DNA of 40,060 bases, from the sequence record NC_048071.1. The stretch is one strand, 5' to 3'. Origin of the DNA: Escherichia phage IMM-002. The position numbers were made by a program, and so were the translations under genes. The notes under the pieces were generated by a model. The model saw nothing but the letters and a program-made list of their open reading frames with translations. It was not told where the DNA came from and did not search any database. Positions 7,218 through 10,455 of the stretch are shown piece after piece; position 1 is the stretch's first letter; each line of letters starts with the position of its first letter.

Positions 7218-7466
7218 ATGAGCAGACGTTGGTTATTCGATGCGTCCACGAGCCAGTGGTCCTCGTTAGGCCGGACACACCGCGAGATGGGTGAATCAGG
7301 ACTTGAGGTCCGAATGGATGAGCTGCCTTGCTCCCGGACAACTCTGGTCAGAATCACTGAAGCAGATGGGAAGCCTCTGGTATCCCGCGAGTTTACCGAA
7401 CATGAAATCTTTAGCTGTGAGCAATGGTGCTTGCAGGTGCTGAACGACTATAGGAGCTGGAAATAA
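7218..7466 (+). CDS. 1.2: gp1.2-like protein (T7 gp1.2 inhibits host dGTPase)
   Basis: 82 aa, position between 1.1 and ligase; C-terminal NDYRSWK resembles T7 gp1.2 YDQLKDWK. Confidence 0.55.
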   Translation: MSRRWLFDASTSQWSSLGRTHREMGESGLEVRMDELPCSRTTLVRITEADGKPLVSREFTEHEIFSCEQWCLQVLNDYRSWK

Positions 7467-8551
7467 TGACTACTACACTCAAGACCAACCCGCATCGCGC
7501 TGTAGATTACTCTGAGTCCGGCGTTAAGAAAGCACTGGACGCAGCCGGGTCGCTGGAAGCTGAAGTGAAGTACGACGGTGTGCGTCTCAACATTCCGGTC
7601 CTTCGTGAAGGTGAGACCTACTGGCTGAGCCGTGAGTCGAAACCTCTGCCAGCCTTGGAGTGGATGAACTCTGAGTTAGGCAATGCTTGGACCCAAGCTG
7701 ACTGGCGCTGGTTCCTGCGTCAAGCTGGCTACGAAGGTGTGGGCCTGATGATTGACGGCGAGGTCATGGTCAAAGGTGTGGACTTCAACACATCCTCAGG
7801 CCTCATCAGAACGAAGTGGCTGAAGCCTAACAACGAGGCGTTCGCTGAATGTTATCCGGGCCGTGGCAAGAAGGTCCCGTTCTGGGTCGCCCGGTCCCGA
7901 CTTCAGGTTGTGGTCTACGGTGTCGTCGACATGACGACCATAGCCGACCCGAAAGCAGAAGGTCCTATCCATAGCGTCACCCGCCTGAAGGCCGAAGCTA
8001 TCGTCCCTCTCCTCCAGAAATACTTCCCGGAAATCGACTGGGTTCTGTCTGAGTCACACACGGTCTTTGACCTTGAGTCGCTCAACTCCCTGTACGAAGA
8101 GAAGCGTCTGGAAGGACACGAGGGTCTGGTAATCAAGGACCCGTTGGGTAACTACAAGCGTGGCAAGAAGTCAGGCATGTGGAAGATGAAGCCTGAGGAC
8201 ACCATCGACGGGACTGTATGTGGCCTCGTGTGGGGGACTCAGGGTAAGGCCAACGAAGGCAAGGTCATCGGCTTTGAGGTGCTGCTGGAAGATGGCATGG
8301 TGGTCAACGCCTGTGGTCTGACCGAGGAGCAGAAGGATGAGTTCACCGCCAAGGTTAAAGAGGACACTCTCGCCGCTGTGGGCATATTTGCTCCGTATGG
8401 TATTGGCGGTAACGAACCCTGCTTCGATAACCCATACGAAGGCTGGCAGGTTGAAGTCCTCTTCATGGAGCGCTTCCCGGACGGCTCCCTGCGCCACCCA
8501 AGTTTCAACCAGTGGCGTGGCACGGAAGACAATCCGACCATTAAGAGCTAA
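7466..8551 (+). CDS. 1.3: ATP-dependent DNA ligase
   Basis: 361 aa; adenylation motif EVKYDGVR, YWLSR, MIDGEVMVKGVDFNTSSGLIRTKW, EGHEGLVIKDP, KRGKKSGMWKMKPE, GSLRHPSF collinear with T7 ligase. Confidence 0.96.
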   Translation: MTTTLKTNPHRAVDYSESGVKKALDAAGSLEAEVKYDGVRLNIPVLREGETYWLSRESKPLPALEWMNSELGNAWTQADWRWFLRQAGYEGVGLMIDGEVMVKGVDFNTSSGLIRTKWLKPNNEAFAECYPGRGKKVPFWVARSRLQVVVYGVVDMTTIADPKAEGPIHSVTRLKAEAIVPLLQKYFPEIDWVLSESHTVFDLESLNSLYEEKRLEGHEGLVIKDPLGNYKRGKKSGMWKMKPEDTIDGTVCGLVWGTQGKANEGKVIGFEVLLEDGMVVNACGLTEEQKDEFTAKVKEDTLAAVGIFAPYGIGGNEPCFDNPYEGWQVEVLFMERFPDGSLRHPSFNQWRGTEDNPTIKS

Positions 8552-8562
8552 CTGAACGTCAA

Positions 8563-8597
8563 CCCAGTGGTCTTCGCGGACTGCTGGGTTTCTTTGT
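8563..8597 (+). terminator. Rho-independent terminator, early terminator TE-equivalent
   Basis: GC-rich hairpin CCCAGTGGTC-TTCGCG-GACTGCTGGG followed by TTTCTTTGTG, directly after ligase as in T7. Confidence 0.7.
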
Positions 8598-8618
8598 GTC
8601 TGGACTCCGGGCCGCTGG

Positions 8619-8641
8619 ACTTAACTATCACTGTAGGACCA
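8619..8641 (+). promoter_or_regulatory. Phage RNAP promoter
   Basis: TTAACTATCACTGTAGGACC, +1 about 8636. Confidence 0.75.
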
Positions 8642-8673
8642 CACCAGGTCCAAGACTTTAAGAGGAGAAACCT

Positions 8674-8928
8674 ATGTCTAAGAACTTAATGTTCAACCGT
8701 TTCAGTCAGACCTTCCACCTGTCACACAATCCGTTCGCTTGCATTAAGCGTAACGAGAAGGTGGGCTTCTTCGGGAAGGCCGTTAAGCTGGCACCTACGG
8801 TCTACGCTCTGATTGTTCCGAGCAAAGTAGAAGAGGCTCGCCAGAAGAAAGAGACCAGTGTACCAGTGGTCTACACCAAGTGGCCTCGCGTTCGTCTGGT
8901 GCTGGAGTTCATCAAGGAGGAGCTCTAA
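8674..8928 (+). CDS. Hypothetical protein (gp1.6 position)
   Basis: 84-aa ORF with GAGGAG RBS after promoter; assignment positional only. Confidence 0.5.
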   Translation: MSKNLMFNRFSQTFHLSHNPFACIKRNEKVGFFGKAVKLAPTVYALIVPSKVEEARQKKETSVPVVYTKWPRVRLVLEFIKEEL

Positions 8929-9305
8929 TGGCTCATTATTGTGTGGACTGTCAGAACGACCATACCGAATGCACCTGCCACCTGAAGTATCAGACACCAG
9001 CGCCAAGCTGTTCGCCAACGTACACTGGTGGGTCTGCCGATTACTACCAAGTGCCTATCACCAAGACTACGACTCCCGGTCGACCGGACTACATCGCTGA
9101 ATGCAACGACATTATCGAGGCTCTCGGTATGAACTTTGCAGAAGGCAATGCGTTCAAGGCCATCTGGCGTCGGGCTGCTCAACGGACCTTAGGTCTGCGT
9201 AAGGCTGGTGCTAAGGACGATGGACTGTATGATGCTGAGAAGGTCGAGTTCTTCGGCGCTCGTCTGGTAGCACAAAGCAAGGCGGCAGGTCATGACTCCA
9301 AGTGA
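8928..9305 (+). CDS. DUF3310-type protein (gp1.7 position)
   Basis: 125 aa from ATG 8928 (track ORF opens at 8880); PDYIAECNDIIEALGMNFAEGNAFKAIWRRA...GLYDAEKVEFF fits the DUF3310 pattern as I recall it. Confidence 0.5.
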   Translation: MAHYCVDCQNDHTECTCHLKYQTPAPSCSPTYTGGSADYYQVPITKTTTPGRPDYIAECNDIIEALGMNFAEGNAFKAIWRRAAQRTLGLRKAGAKDDGLYDAEKVEFFGARLVAQSKAAGHDSK

Positions 9306-9383
9306 ATGGTGCGAGATGATGTTTGAGAAGACGGGTAACGTCGACTATCTCGAAATGTATAACCTCTGGAAAGGGAGAGGACT

Positions 9384-9560
9384 ATGACCATCTATAAGGG
9401 CATCTTCGGGTCTCTGTACGCAGTGAACCAACACGGAGTCGTCTGCGTTAAGCCGGACGGTGGCGAGTGGTGCGCATCACATTACAGTGTCGAGGGATTC
9501 CAAGACGCTATTGATAAAGGCTATGTGACGGAGGTGGTCGATGACCAAGGAGTCAACTGA
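9384..9560 (+). CDS. Hypothetical small protein (gp1.8 position)
   Basis: 58-aa ORF, GGGAGAGG RBS, overlaps gene 2 start. Confidence 0.4.
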
Positions 9561-9711
9561 GAAGAAGTATATCGTGGAACTTGAAGGGCGCGTTCAGTCC
9601 TTTGACGTCCCGGTCTACGCTAAGTCTCTGGACGAGGCGACCCTGAAGGCTCAGGAATATGAAGATGCTGGTTTCGTGGTAGGCCGCATCCGACCTGAGC
9701 TGCACGACTAA
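9541..9711 (+). CDS. 2: Gp2-like inhibitor of host RNA polymerase
   Basis: 56 aa (below track cut-off); [32 protein letters not shown] matches T7 Gp2 [33 protein letters not shown]. Confidence 0.75.
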
Positions 9712-9729
9712 ACTATCACTTTAGGAACA
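9707..9729 (+). promoter_or_regulatory. Phage RNAP promoter (phi2.5-equivalent)
   Basis: CTAAACTATCACTTTAGGAAC, +1 about 9724. Confidence 0.75.
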
Positions 9730-9756
9730 CCTTAACTTTAACTAGGAGATTTACCG

Positions 9757-10455
9757 ATGGCTAAAGAGCAACTGAAAACTTTCACCACTCCGGTCGCTGG
9801 TCTGGTCGAGCCGTATAGCTGGCTGAACAAGTCAGACACCAAGTTCAACGAGCGTGGTGAGCACAAAGTCAACCTGACGTTCGACCTGAGCGACCCGAAA
9901 GTTCGCAAGATGATTGACGTCTTGCAGAAGATTCACGACGATGCGTATGCGAAAGCACTCGCAGACCACGAGAAGAACCCCCCTCAGGTTCAGCGTGGCA
10001 AGAAGCCTATCGAACCGCGTGAAGGCGATATGCCGTGGATTGAGAACGGTGATGGTACTGTTACCCTGAAGTTCAAATGCTTTGCGTCTTACTTGAAAGA
10101 CGGCAAGTCCGAGCCTATCGTATTACGGTTCTACGACACCGATGCTAAACTCATCCGTGACGTCCCGAATATTGGCACCGGGTCTAAGCTGAAAGTCAAG
10201 TTCAAAGTCCTGCCGTTCAAGTGGAACGCTGCGACTGGTGCAAGCGTTAAGCTGCAACTCGAATCCGTTCTGCTGGTCGAACTCAAAGAGTGGTCCGGCG
10301 ATGGTACTGGTGGTGATGGTGGCTGGGGTGACGATGAAGACATCGGCTCCGGTGGCTACAAAGCGTCTACTGACGGTGACTTCGGGTCTGATGACTTCGG
10401 TGAAGATGCCGATGGTGGCGATGACTCTGCGTCCGGTGGCGACTACGACTTCTAA
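9757..10455 (+). CDS. 2.5: Single-stranded DNA-binding protein
   Basis: 232 aa; GKKPIEPREGDMPW, NGDGT, KFKCFASY, WNAATGASVKLQLESVLLVEL and acidic C-terminal tail ending DYDF, as in T7 gp2.5. Confidence 0.95.
   Translation: MAKEQLKTFTTPVAGLVEPYSWLNKSDTKFNERGEHKVNLTFDLSDPKVRKMIDVLQKIHDDAYAKALADHEKNPPQVQRGKKPIEPREGDMPWIENGDGTVTLKFKCFASYLKDGKSEPIVLRFYDTDAKLIRDVPNIGTGSKLKVKFKVLPFKWNAATGASVKLQLESVLLVELKEWSGDGTGGDGGWGDDEDIGSGGYKASTDGDFGSDDFGEDADGGDDSASGGDYDF

What the first reader, a model, noticed from the sequence alone, without database searches (positions are those of the whole stretch)
8928..9305. DUF3310-like protein at the gene 1.7 position, shorter than T7 nucleotide kinase
T7 gp1.7 is a 196-aa nucleotide kinase. 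The protein here is 125 aa with a Cys/His-rich N-terminus and a motif I associate with DUF3310. Its function may differ from the T7 enzyme.
Basis: partly seen in the sequence, partly recalled or inferred. Interest (0 to 1): 0.3.

Follow-up and report, generated by a model that had tools for sequence, protein, structure and literature searches.

The report
Divergent gene 1.7 nucleotide-kinase-like protein
This small T7-like phage gene sits where T7 has its nucleotide kinase gene 1.7, keeps the short zinc-knuckle start of its relatives' version, but carries a very divergent, uncatalogued cousin of the usual DUF3310 domain; it is interesting as gene-cassette swapping but not a new kind of system.

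Summary
The ORF is real: 8928..9305 (+), 125 aa, strong Shine-Dalgarno site, start overlapping the stop of a gp1.6 homolog. A gp1.8 homolog and the gp2 RNA polymerase inhibitor follow, so it sits at the gene 1.7 position.

There is no Pfam DUF3310 (PF11753) hit at E<=10, and none in 150 diverse relatives. T7 gp1.7 and the nearest canonical version (Citrobacter phage SH4 gp14, 106 aa) hit PF11753 at about 1e-23.

Residues 31-121 belong to a large family with no Pfam model: 1610 clusters at 90% identity, 1083 at 50%.

This domain replaces DUF3310 inside the same gene. The first 20 codons are 90% identical in DNA to SH4, then similarity stops until gene 2. Of 116 family members, 76 share N-terminal modules with DUF3310-type gp1.7 proteins.

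Remote homology is supported but not proven:
- Profile-profile alignment gives probability 45-54% and P about 1e-4; 0 of 300 shuffles reach it.
- Ten conserved residues coincide.
- Foldseek's nearest non-family neighbours are DUF3310/SaV-like proteins.
- The reciprocal fold search failed.

Most likely function is a gp1.7-type dNMP kinase. This is inferred and untested. The short length is normal for this phage group.

The parts
8561..8590 (+). Terminator-like hairpin after the DNA ligase gene, in the position of T7's early terminator TE
   Evidence: 13-bp stem followed by a T-rich tail. T7 has TE directly after ligase. The positional analogy is inferred.
8624..8640 (+). Phage-RNA-polymerase promoter-like site that would drive genes 1.6, 1.7, 1.8 and 2
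   Evidence: ACTATCACTGTAGGACC is one of 10 matches to ACTATCACTTTAGGAAC. All 10 are on the + strand; 0.06 are expected by chance. Promoter function is inferred.
8674..8928 (+). gp1.6 homolog (84 aa); its stop overlaps the start of the target
   Evidence: BLASTP to T7 gp1.6 gives 40% identity, E 8e-12. phrog_1777 E 1e-29.
8928..9305 (+). Target ORF: the gene 1.7 equivalent, 125 aa
   Evidence: A homolog at 96% identity is annotated as a hypothetical protein in Cronobacter phage GW1.
8928..8987 (+). N-terminal module, aa 1-20: HY-C-x2-C-x6-C-x-C knuckle (probable zinc site), shared with canonical DUF3310-type gp1.7 of Kayfunavirus
   Evidence: 20 of 22 residues are identical to SH4 gp14. DNA is 90% identical to SH4 up to base 8987. 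The motif is found in 21/116 alt-family and 11/122 DUF3310-family N-termini. pLDDT is about 63. Zinc binding is inferred.
8988..9017 (+). Linker, aa 21-30, variable and predicted to be disordered
   Evidence: pLDDT is below 50 at aa 26-28 and 31-33. Length and sequence vary among homologs.
9018..9290 (+). Conserved C-terminal domain, aa 31-121: divergent DUF3310-like fold (beta-hairpin plus three helices) with no Pfam model
   Evidence: Matches the C-terminal part of phrog_35442 at E 8e-59. Invariant residues: Y39 Y40 E58 I63 A78 W80 R81 K92 Y101 D102 K105. AF2 pLDDT is above 90 over most of aa 41-120, dipping to about 82 in the 89-99 loop. hhalign to a broad DUF3310 profile gives probability 45-54%.
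8988..9558 (+). Mosaic block with no DNA similarity to the otherwise 90-93% identical phage SH4: the swapped domain plus two small ORFs
   Evidence: blastn similarity spans 8429-8987 at 90%, is absent from 8988 to 9558, and resumes at 9559-9800 at 93%. Only 1 of 141 related phage records covers at least 80% of region 8600-9760.
9292..9387 (+). gp1.8 homolog (31 aa); its start overlaps the last codons of the target
   Evidence: BLASTP to T7 gp1.8 gives 52% identity, E 1e-10. phrog_1312 E 5e-13.
9384..9560 (+). 58-aa ORF of unknown function; absent from phages GW1 and SH4
   Evidence: phrog_15259 E 3e-15. DNA similarity to GW1 stops at 9387 and resumes at 9559.
9541..9711 (+). gp2 host RNA polymerase inhibitor
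   Evidence: PF16857 E 1.2e-20.

Best explanation
The ORF is this phage's gene 1.7. It lies in the DNA-metabolism gene block, behind a phage-promoter-like site, and has two modules. The first is a 20-residue four-cysteine knuckle that relatives also carry. The second is a roughly 90-residue domain (beta-hairpin plus three helices) that is a very divergent relative of DUF3310, the conserved domain of the T7 gp1.7 nucleotide kinase. By recombination at conserved flanks, this divergent domain has taken the place of the canonical DUF3310 domain in the same gene. Because it keeps the same conserved polar residues, I infer that it does the same job: binding dTMP/dGMP-type nucleotides and phosphorylating them to the diphosphates, which feeds phage DNA synthesis. 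Shown here: gene position, modular replacement, family size and conservation, and statistically supported remote similarity to DUF3310. Inferred: true homology, kinase activity, zinc binding.
For: Synteny: gp1.6 homolog upstream, gp1.8 and gp2 downstream. A phage-promoter-like site lies at 8624.

Domain replacement within one gene:
- aa 1-22 are 91% identical to SH4 gp14, whose remainder is a PF11753 domain.
- DNA identity to SH4 is 90% up to base 8987, absent from 8988 to 9558, and 93% from 9559.
- 76 of 116 family members have N-terminal extensions that match those of DUF3310-type gp1.7 proteins at E<=1e-3, with up to 96% identity.
- T7 gp1.7 aa 16-35 and 42-110 align to the N-terminus of an alt-domain protein, Klebsiella phage P560 'nucleotide kinase', but the C-terminal domains do not align.
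- No canonical DUF3310 occurs elsewhere in the window. A broad DUF3310 HMM ranks the target first among 665 six-frame pieces.

Remote homology:
- hhalign against a broad DUF3310 profile gives probability 45-54% and P 1.2-2.2e-4 over 70 columns.
- 0 of 300 column shuffles reach the score, and the reversed profile scores 10.7 against 26.3.
- The alt-family HMM hits two diverse DUF3310 proteins at E 3.5e-4 and 1.1e-3 in a set of six.
- Conserved residues are identical in register: Y40/Y36, E58/E43, I63/I48, G73/G63, N74/N64, K77/K67, R81/R71, D102/D84, K105/K87, F108/F90.
- The AF2 models of both domains show the same three-helix order.
- In the Foldseek search of BFVD, ranks 1-18 are family members. 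Ranks 19-50 include at least 10 'SaV-like', 'DUF3310' or 'nucleotide kinase' proteins.

Genomic context points to nucleotide metabolism for both domain types:
- Alt domain: next to thyX and ribonucleotide reductase, next to a 5'-nucleotidase, and just after the DNA polymerase in N4-like phages.
- Canonical DUF3310: next to thyX, thymidylate synthase, MazG plus RNR, SSB, or DNA polymerase.

Literature:
- A Pakpunavirus paper whose annotation methods include HHpred calls the C-terminal domain of the gene beside thyX/RNR 'DUF3310' and proposes a nucleotide kinase (PMC12846349).
- DUF3310 has been implicated in gp1.7 kinase activity (PMC10700055).
Against: - There is no PF11753 hit at any threshold for the protein or for 150 relatives. 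The protein shares no PHROG with T7 gp1.7 or SH4 gp14, and no NCBIfam model matches.
- The hhalign probability is only 45-54%, and it was 0.2-0.5% with shallow profiles. Two genuine DUF3310 subfamilies score 97.9%.
- The reciprocal Foldseek search from the SH4 gp14 model did not return the alt family in its top 50. That model is only pLDDT 69.
- Kinase activity has been measured only for T7 gp1.7. I could not read the primary papers, so I cannot cite which residues or region carry the activity.
- There is no Walker-type motif. This is also true of gp1.7 (own knowledge).
Confidence: 0.55

Rival explanations
1. The C-terminal domain is an unrelated or functionally different module that displaced the kinase domain. 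Examples would be a host-takeover or toxic early protein, or an anti-defence factor. In that case the phage has no gp1.7-type kinase at all.
For: There are no Pfam, PHROG or NCBIfam links to DUF3310. The profile-profile probability is modest. The reciprocal fold search was negative. Gene 1.7 is dispensable in T7 (own knowledge). DUF3310 proteins such as SaV and mycobacteriophage gp54 are toxic when expressed, so the family's cellular role is not settled (PMC8306868; PMC10700055).
Against: Ten conserved residues coincide in register with DUF3310. The hhalign score exceeds all 300 shuffles. The same N-terminal modules occur with both domains. The alt domain sits next to thyX, RNR, a 5'-nucleotidase and DNA polymerase, as DUF3310 does.
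Confidence: 0.25
2. The two alternative C-terminal domains are maintained because bacterial abortive-infection sensors recognise gp1.7-type proteins. On this view the divergent domain is an immune-escape form of the same enzyme, and the shuffled N-terminal modules belong to the same arms race.
For: T7 gp1.7 is reported as a likely activator of the EfAvs5 defence protein, from co-expression toxicity, filament formation and NADase assays (PMC11897194). Mutations in the DUF3310 gene sav make lactococcal phages insensitive to AbiV (bioRxiv 10.1101/2024.05.05.592566; PMC8306868). The locus is a mosaic hot spot: only 1 of 141 related records covers at least 80% of the region. Both domain types combine with the same pool of N-terminal modules. 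Both occur in phages of the same host genera.
Against: Nothing here tests recognition by any defence system. Mosaicism of early and middle genes is common in T7-like phages without invoking immunity. This reading is compatible with the main explanation rather than exclusive of it.
Confidence: 0.15
3. The ORF is a truncated or decaying remnant of a T7-length gene 1.7.
For: It has 125 aa against 196 in T7 and no full-length alignment.
Against: The domain is almost invariant across hundreds of phages. The start has a strong ribosome-binding site and is translationally coupled. Short forms of 94-127 aa are common in both families. Canonical gp1.7 in the same genus is 104-109 aa.
Confidence: 0.02

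Closest known systems
Bacteriophage T7 gp1.7 nucleotide kinase (196 aa; C-terminal Pfam PF11753 DUF3310)
   Same: Same gene position, between 1.6 and 1.8/2. Same overall plan of Cys-rich N-terminal part followed by a C-terminal three-helix domain. Conserved residues of the C-terminal domain coincide. Other members of the window's family carry T7-like N-terminal regions.
   Different: No detectable pairwise similarity (BLASTP E 0.99). T7 has about 110 extra N-terminal residues. T7's C-terminal domain hits PF11753 at 4.5e-23, while the window's protein does not hit it at all. The window's domain has an 11-residue hairpin insertion, lacks a 5-residue segment, and has a longer loop between helices 2 and 3. 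Kinase activity is known only for T7.
Citrobacter phage SH4 gp14 / SH5 'nucleotide kinase' (Kayfunavirus, 106 aa)
   Same: Same genus-level backbone, with flanks 90-93% identical in DNA. Same first 20-22 residues, MAHYCVDCQNDHTECTC. Same small size. Same C-terminal HDS[EK] tail.
   Different: SH4 has a canonical PF11753 domain (E 4.8e-22). The window has the divergent domain plus two extra small downstream ORFs in the swapped block.
Same-family proteins annotated '3'-phosphatase, 5'-polynucleotide kinase', 'nucleotide kinase' or 'hypothetical' (Pakpunavirus orf_114 / PaAdele_135; N4 gp41-like proteins of Schitoviridae; Klebsiella phage P560; Cronobacter phage GW1)
   Same: True family members: 38-96% identity over aa 30-120, Foldseek E 1e-7 to 1e-13, and the same invariant residues.
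   Different: They carry different or no N-terminal extensions. The polynucleotide kinase/phosphatase name has no support: the 316-aa Pakpunavirus protein has no Pfam or NCBIfam hit. The link to N4 gp41 rests on a GenBank note and was not tested here.
SaV of lactococcal phages (DUF3310; determinant of sensitivity to the AbiV abortive-infection system)
   Same: A small early phage protein with the DUF3310 fold. 'SaV-like' proteins are among the nearest non-family Foldseek neighbours.
   Different: Only fold-level resemblance (E 0.02-0.1). Different phage group and host. SaV's biochemical activity is unknown; it is toxic on expression (PMC8306868).

Membership tests
Pfam PF11753 (DUF3310 / SaV-like) | Match to the PF11753 HMM at or above the gathering score (24 bits) | tested here: not met
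   No PF11753 hit at E<=10 for the whole protein or for aa 30-125. 0 of 150 diverse relatives hit it at E<=1. None of the 120 closest clusters has a precomputed Pfam domain. Positive controls: T7 gp1.7 scores 81.5 bits and SH4 gp14 78.2 bits.
Pfam PF11753 (DUF3310 / SaV-like) | Profile-profile similarity to DUF3310 (superfamily-level relationship) | tested here: inconclusive
   hhalign gives probability 45% (P 2.2e-4) and 54% (P 1.2e-4, 70 columns) against a broad DUF3310 profile. 0 of 300 column shuffles reach the score and the reversed profile scores 10.7. With shallow profiles the probability was only 0.2-0.5%. Control between two DUF3310 subfamilies: 97.9%.
Pfam PF11753 (DUF3310 / SaV-like) | Conserved motif residues: [HY]-Y near the start, an acidic residue before helix 1, G-N-x-x-K-x-x-x-R in helix 2, D-x-x-K in helix 3 | tested here: met
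   Identical pairs in the hhalign register: Y40/Y36, E58/E43, G73/G63, N74/N64, K77/K67, R81/R71, D102/D84, K105/K87. All are invariant or nearly invariant in both alignments. The DUF3310 side is defined from T7-like sequences and a few diverse ones, not from the Pfam seed.
Pfam PF11753 (DUF3310 / SaV-like) | Same fold as predicted DUF3310 structures | tested here: inconclusive
   Forward Foldseek: after 18 family members, at least 10 of ranks 19-50 are named SaV-like, DUF3310 or nucleotide kinase (E 0.018-0.11, TM 0.37-0.45 normalised to the 125-aa query). Helix order is the same in both AF2 models. The reciprocal search from SH4 gp14 (pLDDT 69) did not return the alt family. No solved structure exists for either.
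T7 gene 1.7 (positional ortholog / nucleotide kinase) | Location between genes 1.6 and 1.8/2 in the class II region | tested here: met
   gp1.6 homolog E 8e-12, gp1.8 homolog E 1e-10, gp2 PF16857 E 1e-20. T7 map.
T7 gene 1.7 (positional ortholog / nucleotide kinase) | Alignable sequence over the length of gp1.7 | tested here: not met
   BLASTP best E 0.99 over 12 residues. Only the modular architecture is shared.
T7 gene 1.7 (positional ortholog / nucleotide kinase) | Phosphorylation of dTMP and dGMP to the diphosphates | not testable with these tools
   This needs a biochemical assay. The activity is cited for T7 gp1.7 in PMC11897194 and PMC12846349.
3'-phosphatase / 5'-polynucleotide kinase (T4 Pnk type), the name many family members carry | P-loop (Walker A) kinase domain and HAD-type phosphatase domain | tested here: not met
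   Direct reading of the 125-aa sequence finds no GK[ST] or Walker A motif. There are no Pfam or NCBIfam kinase or HAD hits for the window protein or for the 316-aa Pakpunavirus member that bears this name.

The most novel reading that the evidence does not exclude
The gene 1.7 locus of T7-like phages (and the equivalent locus of N4-like phages) may be a combinatorial cassette system. Two deeply diverged versions of one catalytic domain are shuffled with a shared pool of small Cys-rich or SH3-like N-terminal modules. The driver would be bacterial sensors (Avs5, AbiV-type) that detect gp1.7/SaV proteins. The window's domain would then be an immune-escape isoform of the dNMP kinase, and the family would deserve its own Pfam entry in a clan with DUF3310.
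Probability: 0.2. Interest if true: 0.6.

Novelty: new variant of a known kind. Interest (0 to 1): 0.33.

Why it matters
- Annotation gap. A domain family with more than 1000 representatives at 50% identity has no Pfam or NCBIfam model. It is found in 469 sequenced phage genomes, against 1386 for the T7-type DUF3310 domain. It is annotated inconsistently as hypothetical protein, nucleotide kinase, 3'-phosphatase/5'-polynucleotide kinase, and even RNA polymerase inhibitor. Tying it to DUF3310/gp1.7 gives a testable function and would correct those labels.
- Help with an unmapped active site. gp1.7 is an unusual kinase with no recognisable nucleotide-binding motif. The ten residues conserved between two such distant versions of the domain are a short list of candidate catalytic or ligand-binding positions.
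- Link to phage defence. gp1.7 and SaV have both been linked to abortive-infection defences. The naturally occurring domain swap offers matched pairs of phages (window versus SH4-like) for testing what those sensors recognise.

Tried and rejected
Searches that found no link to DUF3310:
- Direct Pfam, NCBIfam and PHROG scans gave no link.
- BLASTP to T7 gp1.7 gave nothing.
- The PDB sequence search gave only chance hits for the window protein and none for T7 gp1.7.

Profile comparisons that were too shallow:
- hhalign with T7-like-only profiles was uninformative, probability 0.2-0.5%.
- HMM-versus-sequence searches between the two T7-like sets were also uninformative (E 0.3-3).
- The search for related loci with the DUF3310 alignment returned only close T7-like relatives (at least 57% identity). 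It did not add diversity.

Fold searches:
- The reciprocal Foldseek search from the SH4 gp14 model did not recover the alt family.
- The afdb50 fold library was unavailable.

Literature:
- The primary gp1.7 biochemistry papers (Tran et al. 2008, 2010, 2012, 2014) are not held. Statements about them rest on secondary citations or my own knowledge.

Ideas rejected:
- The alternative GTG start at 8880 (141 aa). Homologs start at MAHYC, and the ATG has the ribosome-binding site.
- Pseudogene or truncation.
- T4-type polynucleotide kinase.
- Foreign base composition of the swapped block. GC is 0.52-0.54, like the flanks.

Full report
**The observation**

The window is a T7-like phage genome, about 90% identical in this region to Kayfunavirus-type phages such as Escherichia phage Ro103C3lw, Pisces and Cronobacter phage GW1.

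An ORF runs from 8928 to 9305 on the + strand (125 aa). Its ATG lies 5 nt after AAGGAGGAG and overlaps the stop codon of the upstream ORF. Proteins 94-98% identical begin at the same methionine.

The N-terminus MAHYCVDCQNDHTECTCH carries four cysteines and three histidines.

The neighbours fix the position:
- DNA ligase lies at 7466..8551, followed by a terminator-like hairpin at 8561-8590.
- A phage-promoter-like site lies at 8624. It is one of ten ACTATCACTnTAGG sites, all on the + strand, against 0.06 expected by chance.
- A gp1.6 homolog follows (E 8e-12), then the target.
- A gp1.8 homolog overlaps the end of the target (E 1e-10).
- A 58-aa ORF, gp2 (PF16857), and then large ORFs for SSB and endonuclease I (identified by T7 gene order) complete the block.

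T7 gp1.7 is 196 aa.

**Is it DUF3310?**

By the family's own test, it is not:
- PF11753 does not match the protein or its C-terminal part even at E<=10.
- T7 gp1.7 and the nearest canonical relative, Citrobacter phage SH4 gp14 (106 aa), match at 4.5e-23 and 4.8e-22.
- None of 150 diverse relatives matches PF11753 at E<=1.
- All 120 closest relatives of SH4 gp14 carry PF11753. None of the 120 closest relatives of the window protein carries any Pfam domain.
- The two groups share no PHROG.
- BLASTP to T7 gp1.7 finds nothing (E 0.99).

**What the domain is**

Residues 31-121 form a very conserved domain:
- The family has 1610 clusters at 90% identity and 1083 representatives at 50%.
- It occurs in 469 of 50,697 phage records, against 1386 for the T7-type DUF3310 domain.
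- Invariant residues are Y39 Y40 E58 I63 A78 W80 R81 K92 Y101 D102 K105.
- It occurs alone (94-102 aa) or at the C-terminus of longer proteins. Those proteins are variously annotated as hypothetical, 'nucleotide kinase' or '3'-phosphatase, 5'-polynucleotide kinase'.
- The polynucleotide kinase name has no support. The 316-aa Pakpunavirus protein that bears it has no Pfam or NCBIfam hit, and there is no P-loop.

AlphaFold2 predicts a beta-hairpin (41-44, 55-58) and three helices (59-66, 70-88, 100-123). pLDDT is above 90 over most of the domain, dipping to about 82 in the 89-99 loop. The N-terminal 36 residues are poorly defined.

**The key finding: a domain swap inside one gene**

SH4 gp14 begins MAHYCVDCQNDHTECTCYLK, which matches the window protein at 20 of 22 residues. 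It then continues with a canonical DUF3310 domain and ends HDSE, where the window protein ends HDSK.

At the DNA level the window is 90% identical to SH4 from 8429 to 8987, which is codon 20 of the target. It shows no similarity from 8988 to 9558, and is 93% identical again from 9559.

The pattern is general:
- 76 of 116 proteins of the window's family have N-terminal extensions that match those of DUF3310-type gp1.7 proteins (E<=1e-3, up to 96% identity).
- Five shared module types were counted in both families by motif search: the HY-CxxC-x6-CxC knuckle, a C-x2-C...DDRYPHTC type, a CRSxLSFGxCDCG type, the T7-like middle region C-x4-C-x4-CxxC, and an SH3/KOW-like type.
- T7 gp1.7 residues 16-35 and 42-110 align with the N-terminus of an alt-domain protein from Klebsiella phage P560. 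The C-terminal domains do not align.
- No protein examined has both domains.
- The window has no canonical DUF3310 elsewhere.

The two C-terminal domains therefore behave as alternative fillings of the same slot.

**Are the two domains homologous?**

Shallow profiles gave nothing. I then widened the DUF3310 profile. I added six distant members (crAss-like, N4-like, phiKMV-like, LUZ100, Streptococcus and Enterococcus phages) and 120 crAss-type relatives.

Sequence evidence with the wider profile:
- hhalign rose to probability 45% (P 2.2e-4). With SH4 as master it reached 54% (P 1.2e-4) over 70 columns spanning the whole domain.
- No column shuffle out of 300 reached the real score (mean 11.0, sd 2.2, maximum 21.4, against 26.3). 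The reversed profile scored 10.7.
- The alt-family HMM hits the crAss-like and LUZ100 DUF3310 proteins at E 3.5e-4 and 1.1e-3 in a set of six.
- A broad DUF3310 HMM ranks the target ORF first among 665 six-frame pieces of the window.
- In the hhalign register, ten conserved residues are identical between the families: Y40/Y36, E58/E43, I63/I48, G73/G63, N74/N64, K77/K67, R81/R71, D102/D84, K105/K87, F108/F90.

Structural evidence:
- After 18 family members, the Foldseek list is populated by 'SaV-like', 'DUF3310' and 'nucleotide kinase' proteins (E 0.018-0.11).
- The SH4 gp14 model has the same three-helix order.

Evidence against:
- The reciprocal Foldseek search, from a mediocre model (pLDDT 69), did not return the alt family.
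- Two genuine DUF3310 subfamilies score 97.9%, so this domain lies far outside the normal range of the family.
- No solved structure is related to either domain.

One independent line comes from the literature. A Pakpunavirus paper describes the C-terminal domain of PaAdele_135, which lies two genes before thyX, as DUF3310; its annotation methods include HHpred against Pfam (PMC12846349). By gene context this corresponds to the alt-domain protein I examined. That correspondence is my inference.

I conclude that the domain is probably (about 0.75) a remote homolog of DUF3310, but it is not a member of PF11753.

**Function**

T7 gp1.7 phosphorylates dTMP and dGMP (cited in PMC11897194, and PMC12846349), and DUF3310 has been implicated in that activity (PMC10700055). 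I could not read the primary papers.

Arguments for the same role here:
- The slot is the same and the N-terminal modules are the same.
- The conserved polar residues coincide.
- The genomic company is the same. The alt domain lies next to thyX and ribonucleotide reductase, next to a 5'-nucleotidase, and just after the DNA polymerase in N4-like phages.
- Canonical DUF3310 lies next to thyX, thymidylate synthase, MazG plus RNR, SSB or DNA polymerase.

The best explanation is therefore a gp1.7-type dNMP kinase that feeds phage DNA synthesis, with confidence about 0.55. The activity is inferred, not shown.

The short length is not a sign of a different function. Canonical versions in this phage group are 104-109 aa.

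**Rivals**

1. The domain does something else, for example host takeover or toxicity as reported for SaV and mycobacteriophage DUF3310 proteins. Confidence 0.25.
2. The swap reflects escape from defence sensors. T7 gp1.7 is reported as a likely activator of EfAvs5, and sav mutations abolish AbiV sensitivity. This is compatible with the main reading, and nothing here tests it. Confidence 0.15.
3. A decaying remnant of a longer gene. The conservation data reject this.

**Novelty and score**

The gene itself is already in databases as a hypothetical protein (96% identical in Cronobacter phage GW1). The kind, a gp1.7/DUF3310 protein, is known.

What is less appreciated is that a large family without any Pfam model is a deeply divergent alternative to DUF3310, and that it swaps with DUF3310 inside one gene across T7-like phages. 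DUF3310 and the alt domain also both occur just downstream of the DNA polymerase in N4-like phages. I rate this a new variant of a known kind, with interest about 0.33.

Noticed in passing
window 6930, 8624, 9712, 12032, 18012, 20831, 21787, 26243, 33533, 39311 (all + strand): Ten sites match ACTATCACT[A/T/G]TAGG. All are on the + strand, against 0.06 expected by chance. They look like this phage's own RNA-polymerase promoters. The site at 9712 also matches a 25-nt stretch upstream of the gp1.6-like gene (gp13) in phage SH4.
   Followed up: partly
window 9384-9560: A 58-aa ORF (phrog_15259, unknown function) between the gp1.8 homolog and gp2. It is absent from the otherwise collinear phages GW1 and SH4, so it is a second small mosaic unit in the same hot spot.
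   Followed up: partly
L004:1817-2767 (Pseudomonas phage vB_PaeM_C2-10_Ab1 orf_114) and many N4-like/Pakpunavirus records: The widespread annotation '3'-phosphatase, 5'-polynucleotide kinase' for proteins carrying this domain has no support from Pfam or NCBIfam (0 hits). It looks like a propagated mislabel. The first ~225 residues of the 316-aa protein remain unassigned.
   Followed up: partly
P0019 (Shigella phage SFP20) and Escherichia phage Ro103C3lw region matching window 8663-9755: There are annotation slips in public records. A 125-aa member of this family is named 'host RNA polymerase inhibitor'. A small ORF in the equivalent region of Ro103C3lw and EcpYZU01 is named 'PTS sucrose transporter subunit IIABC'.
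   Followed up: no
L087 (Pseudoalteromonas phage pYD6-A) versus L085 and L092 (Alcaligenes and E. coli N4-like phages): Within Schitoviridae (N4-like phages), the small gene shortly after the DNA polymerase carries a canonical DUF3310 domain in one phage and the divergent domain in others. The second group is noted in GenBank as similar to N4 gp41. This suggests the same two-way alternation as at T7 gene 1.7.
   Followed up: partly
L085:1100-1560 (Alcaligenes phage vB_Af_QDWS595): The divergent-domain ORF found by tblastn lies in an unannotated gap between gp32 and gp31 of the record, so it is a missed gene call.
   Followed up: no
window 8561-8590: A 13-bp-stem hairpin with a T-rich tail lies directly after the ligase gene, in the position of T7's early terminator TE.
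   Followed up: no
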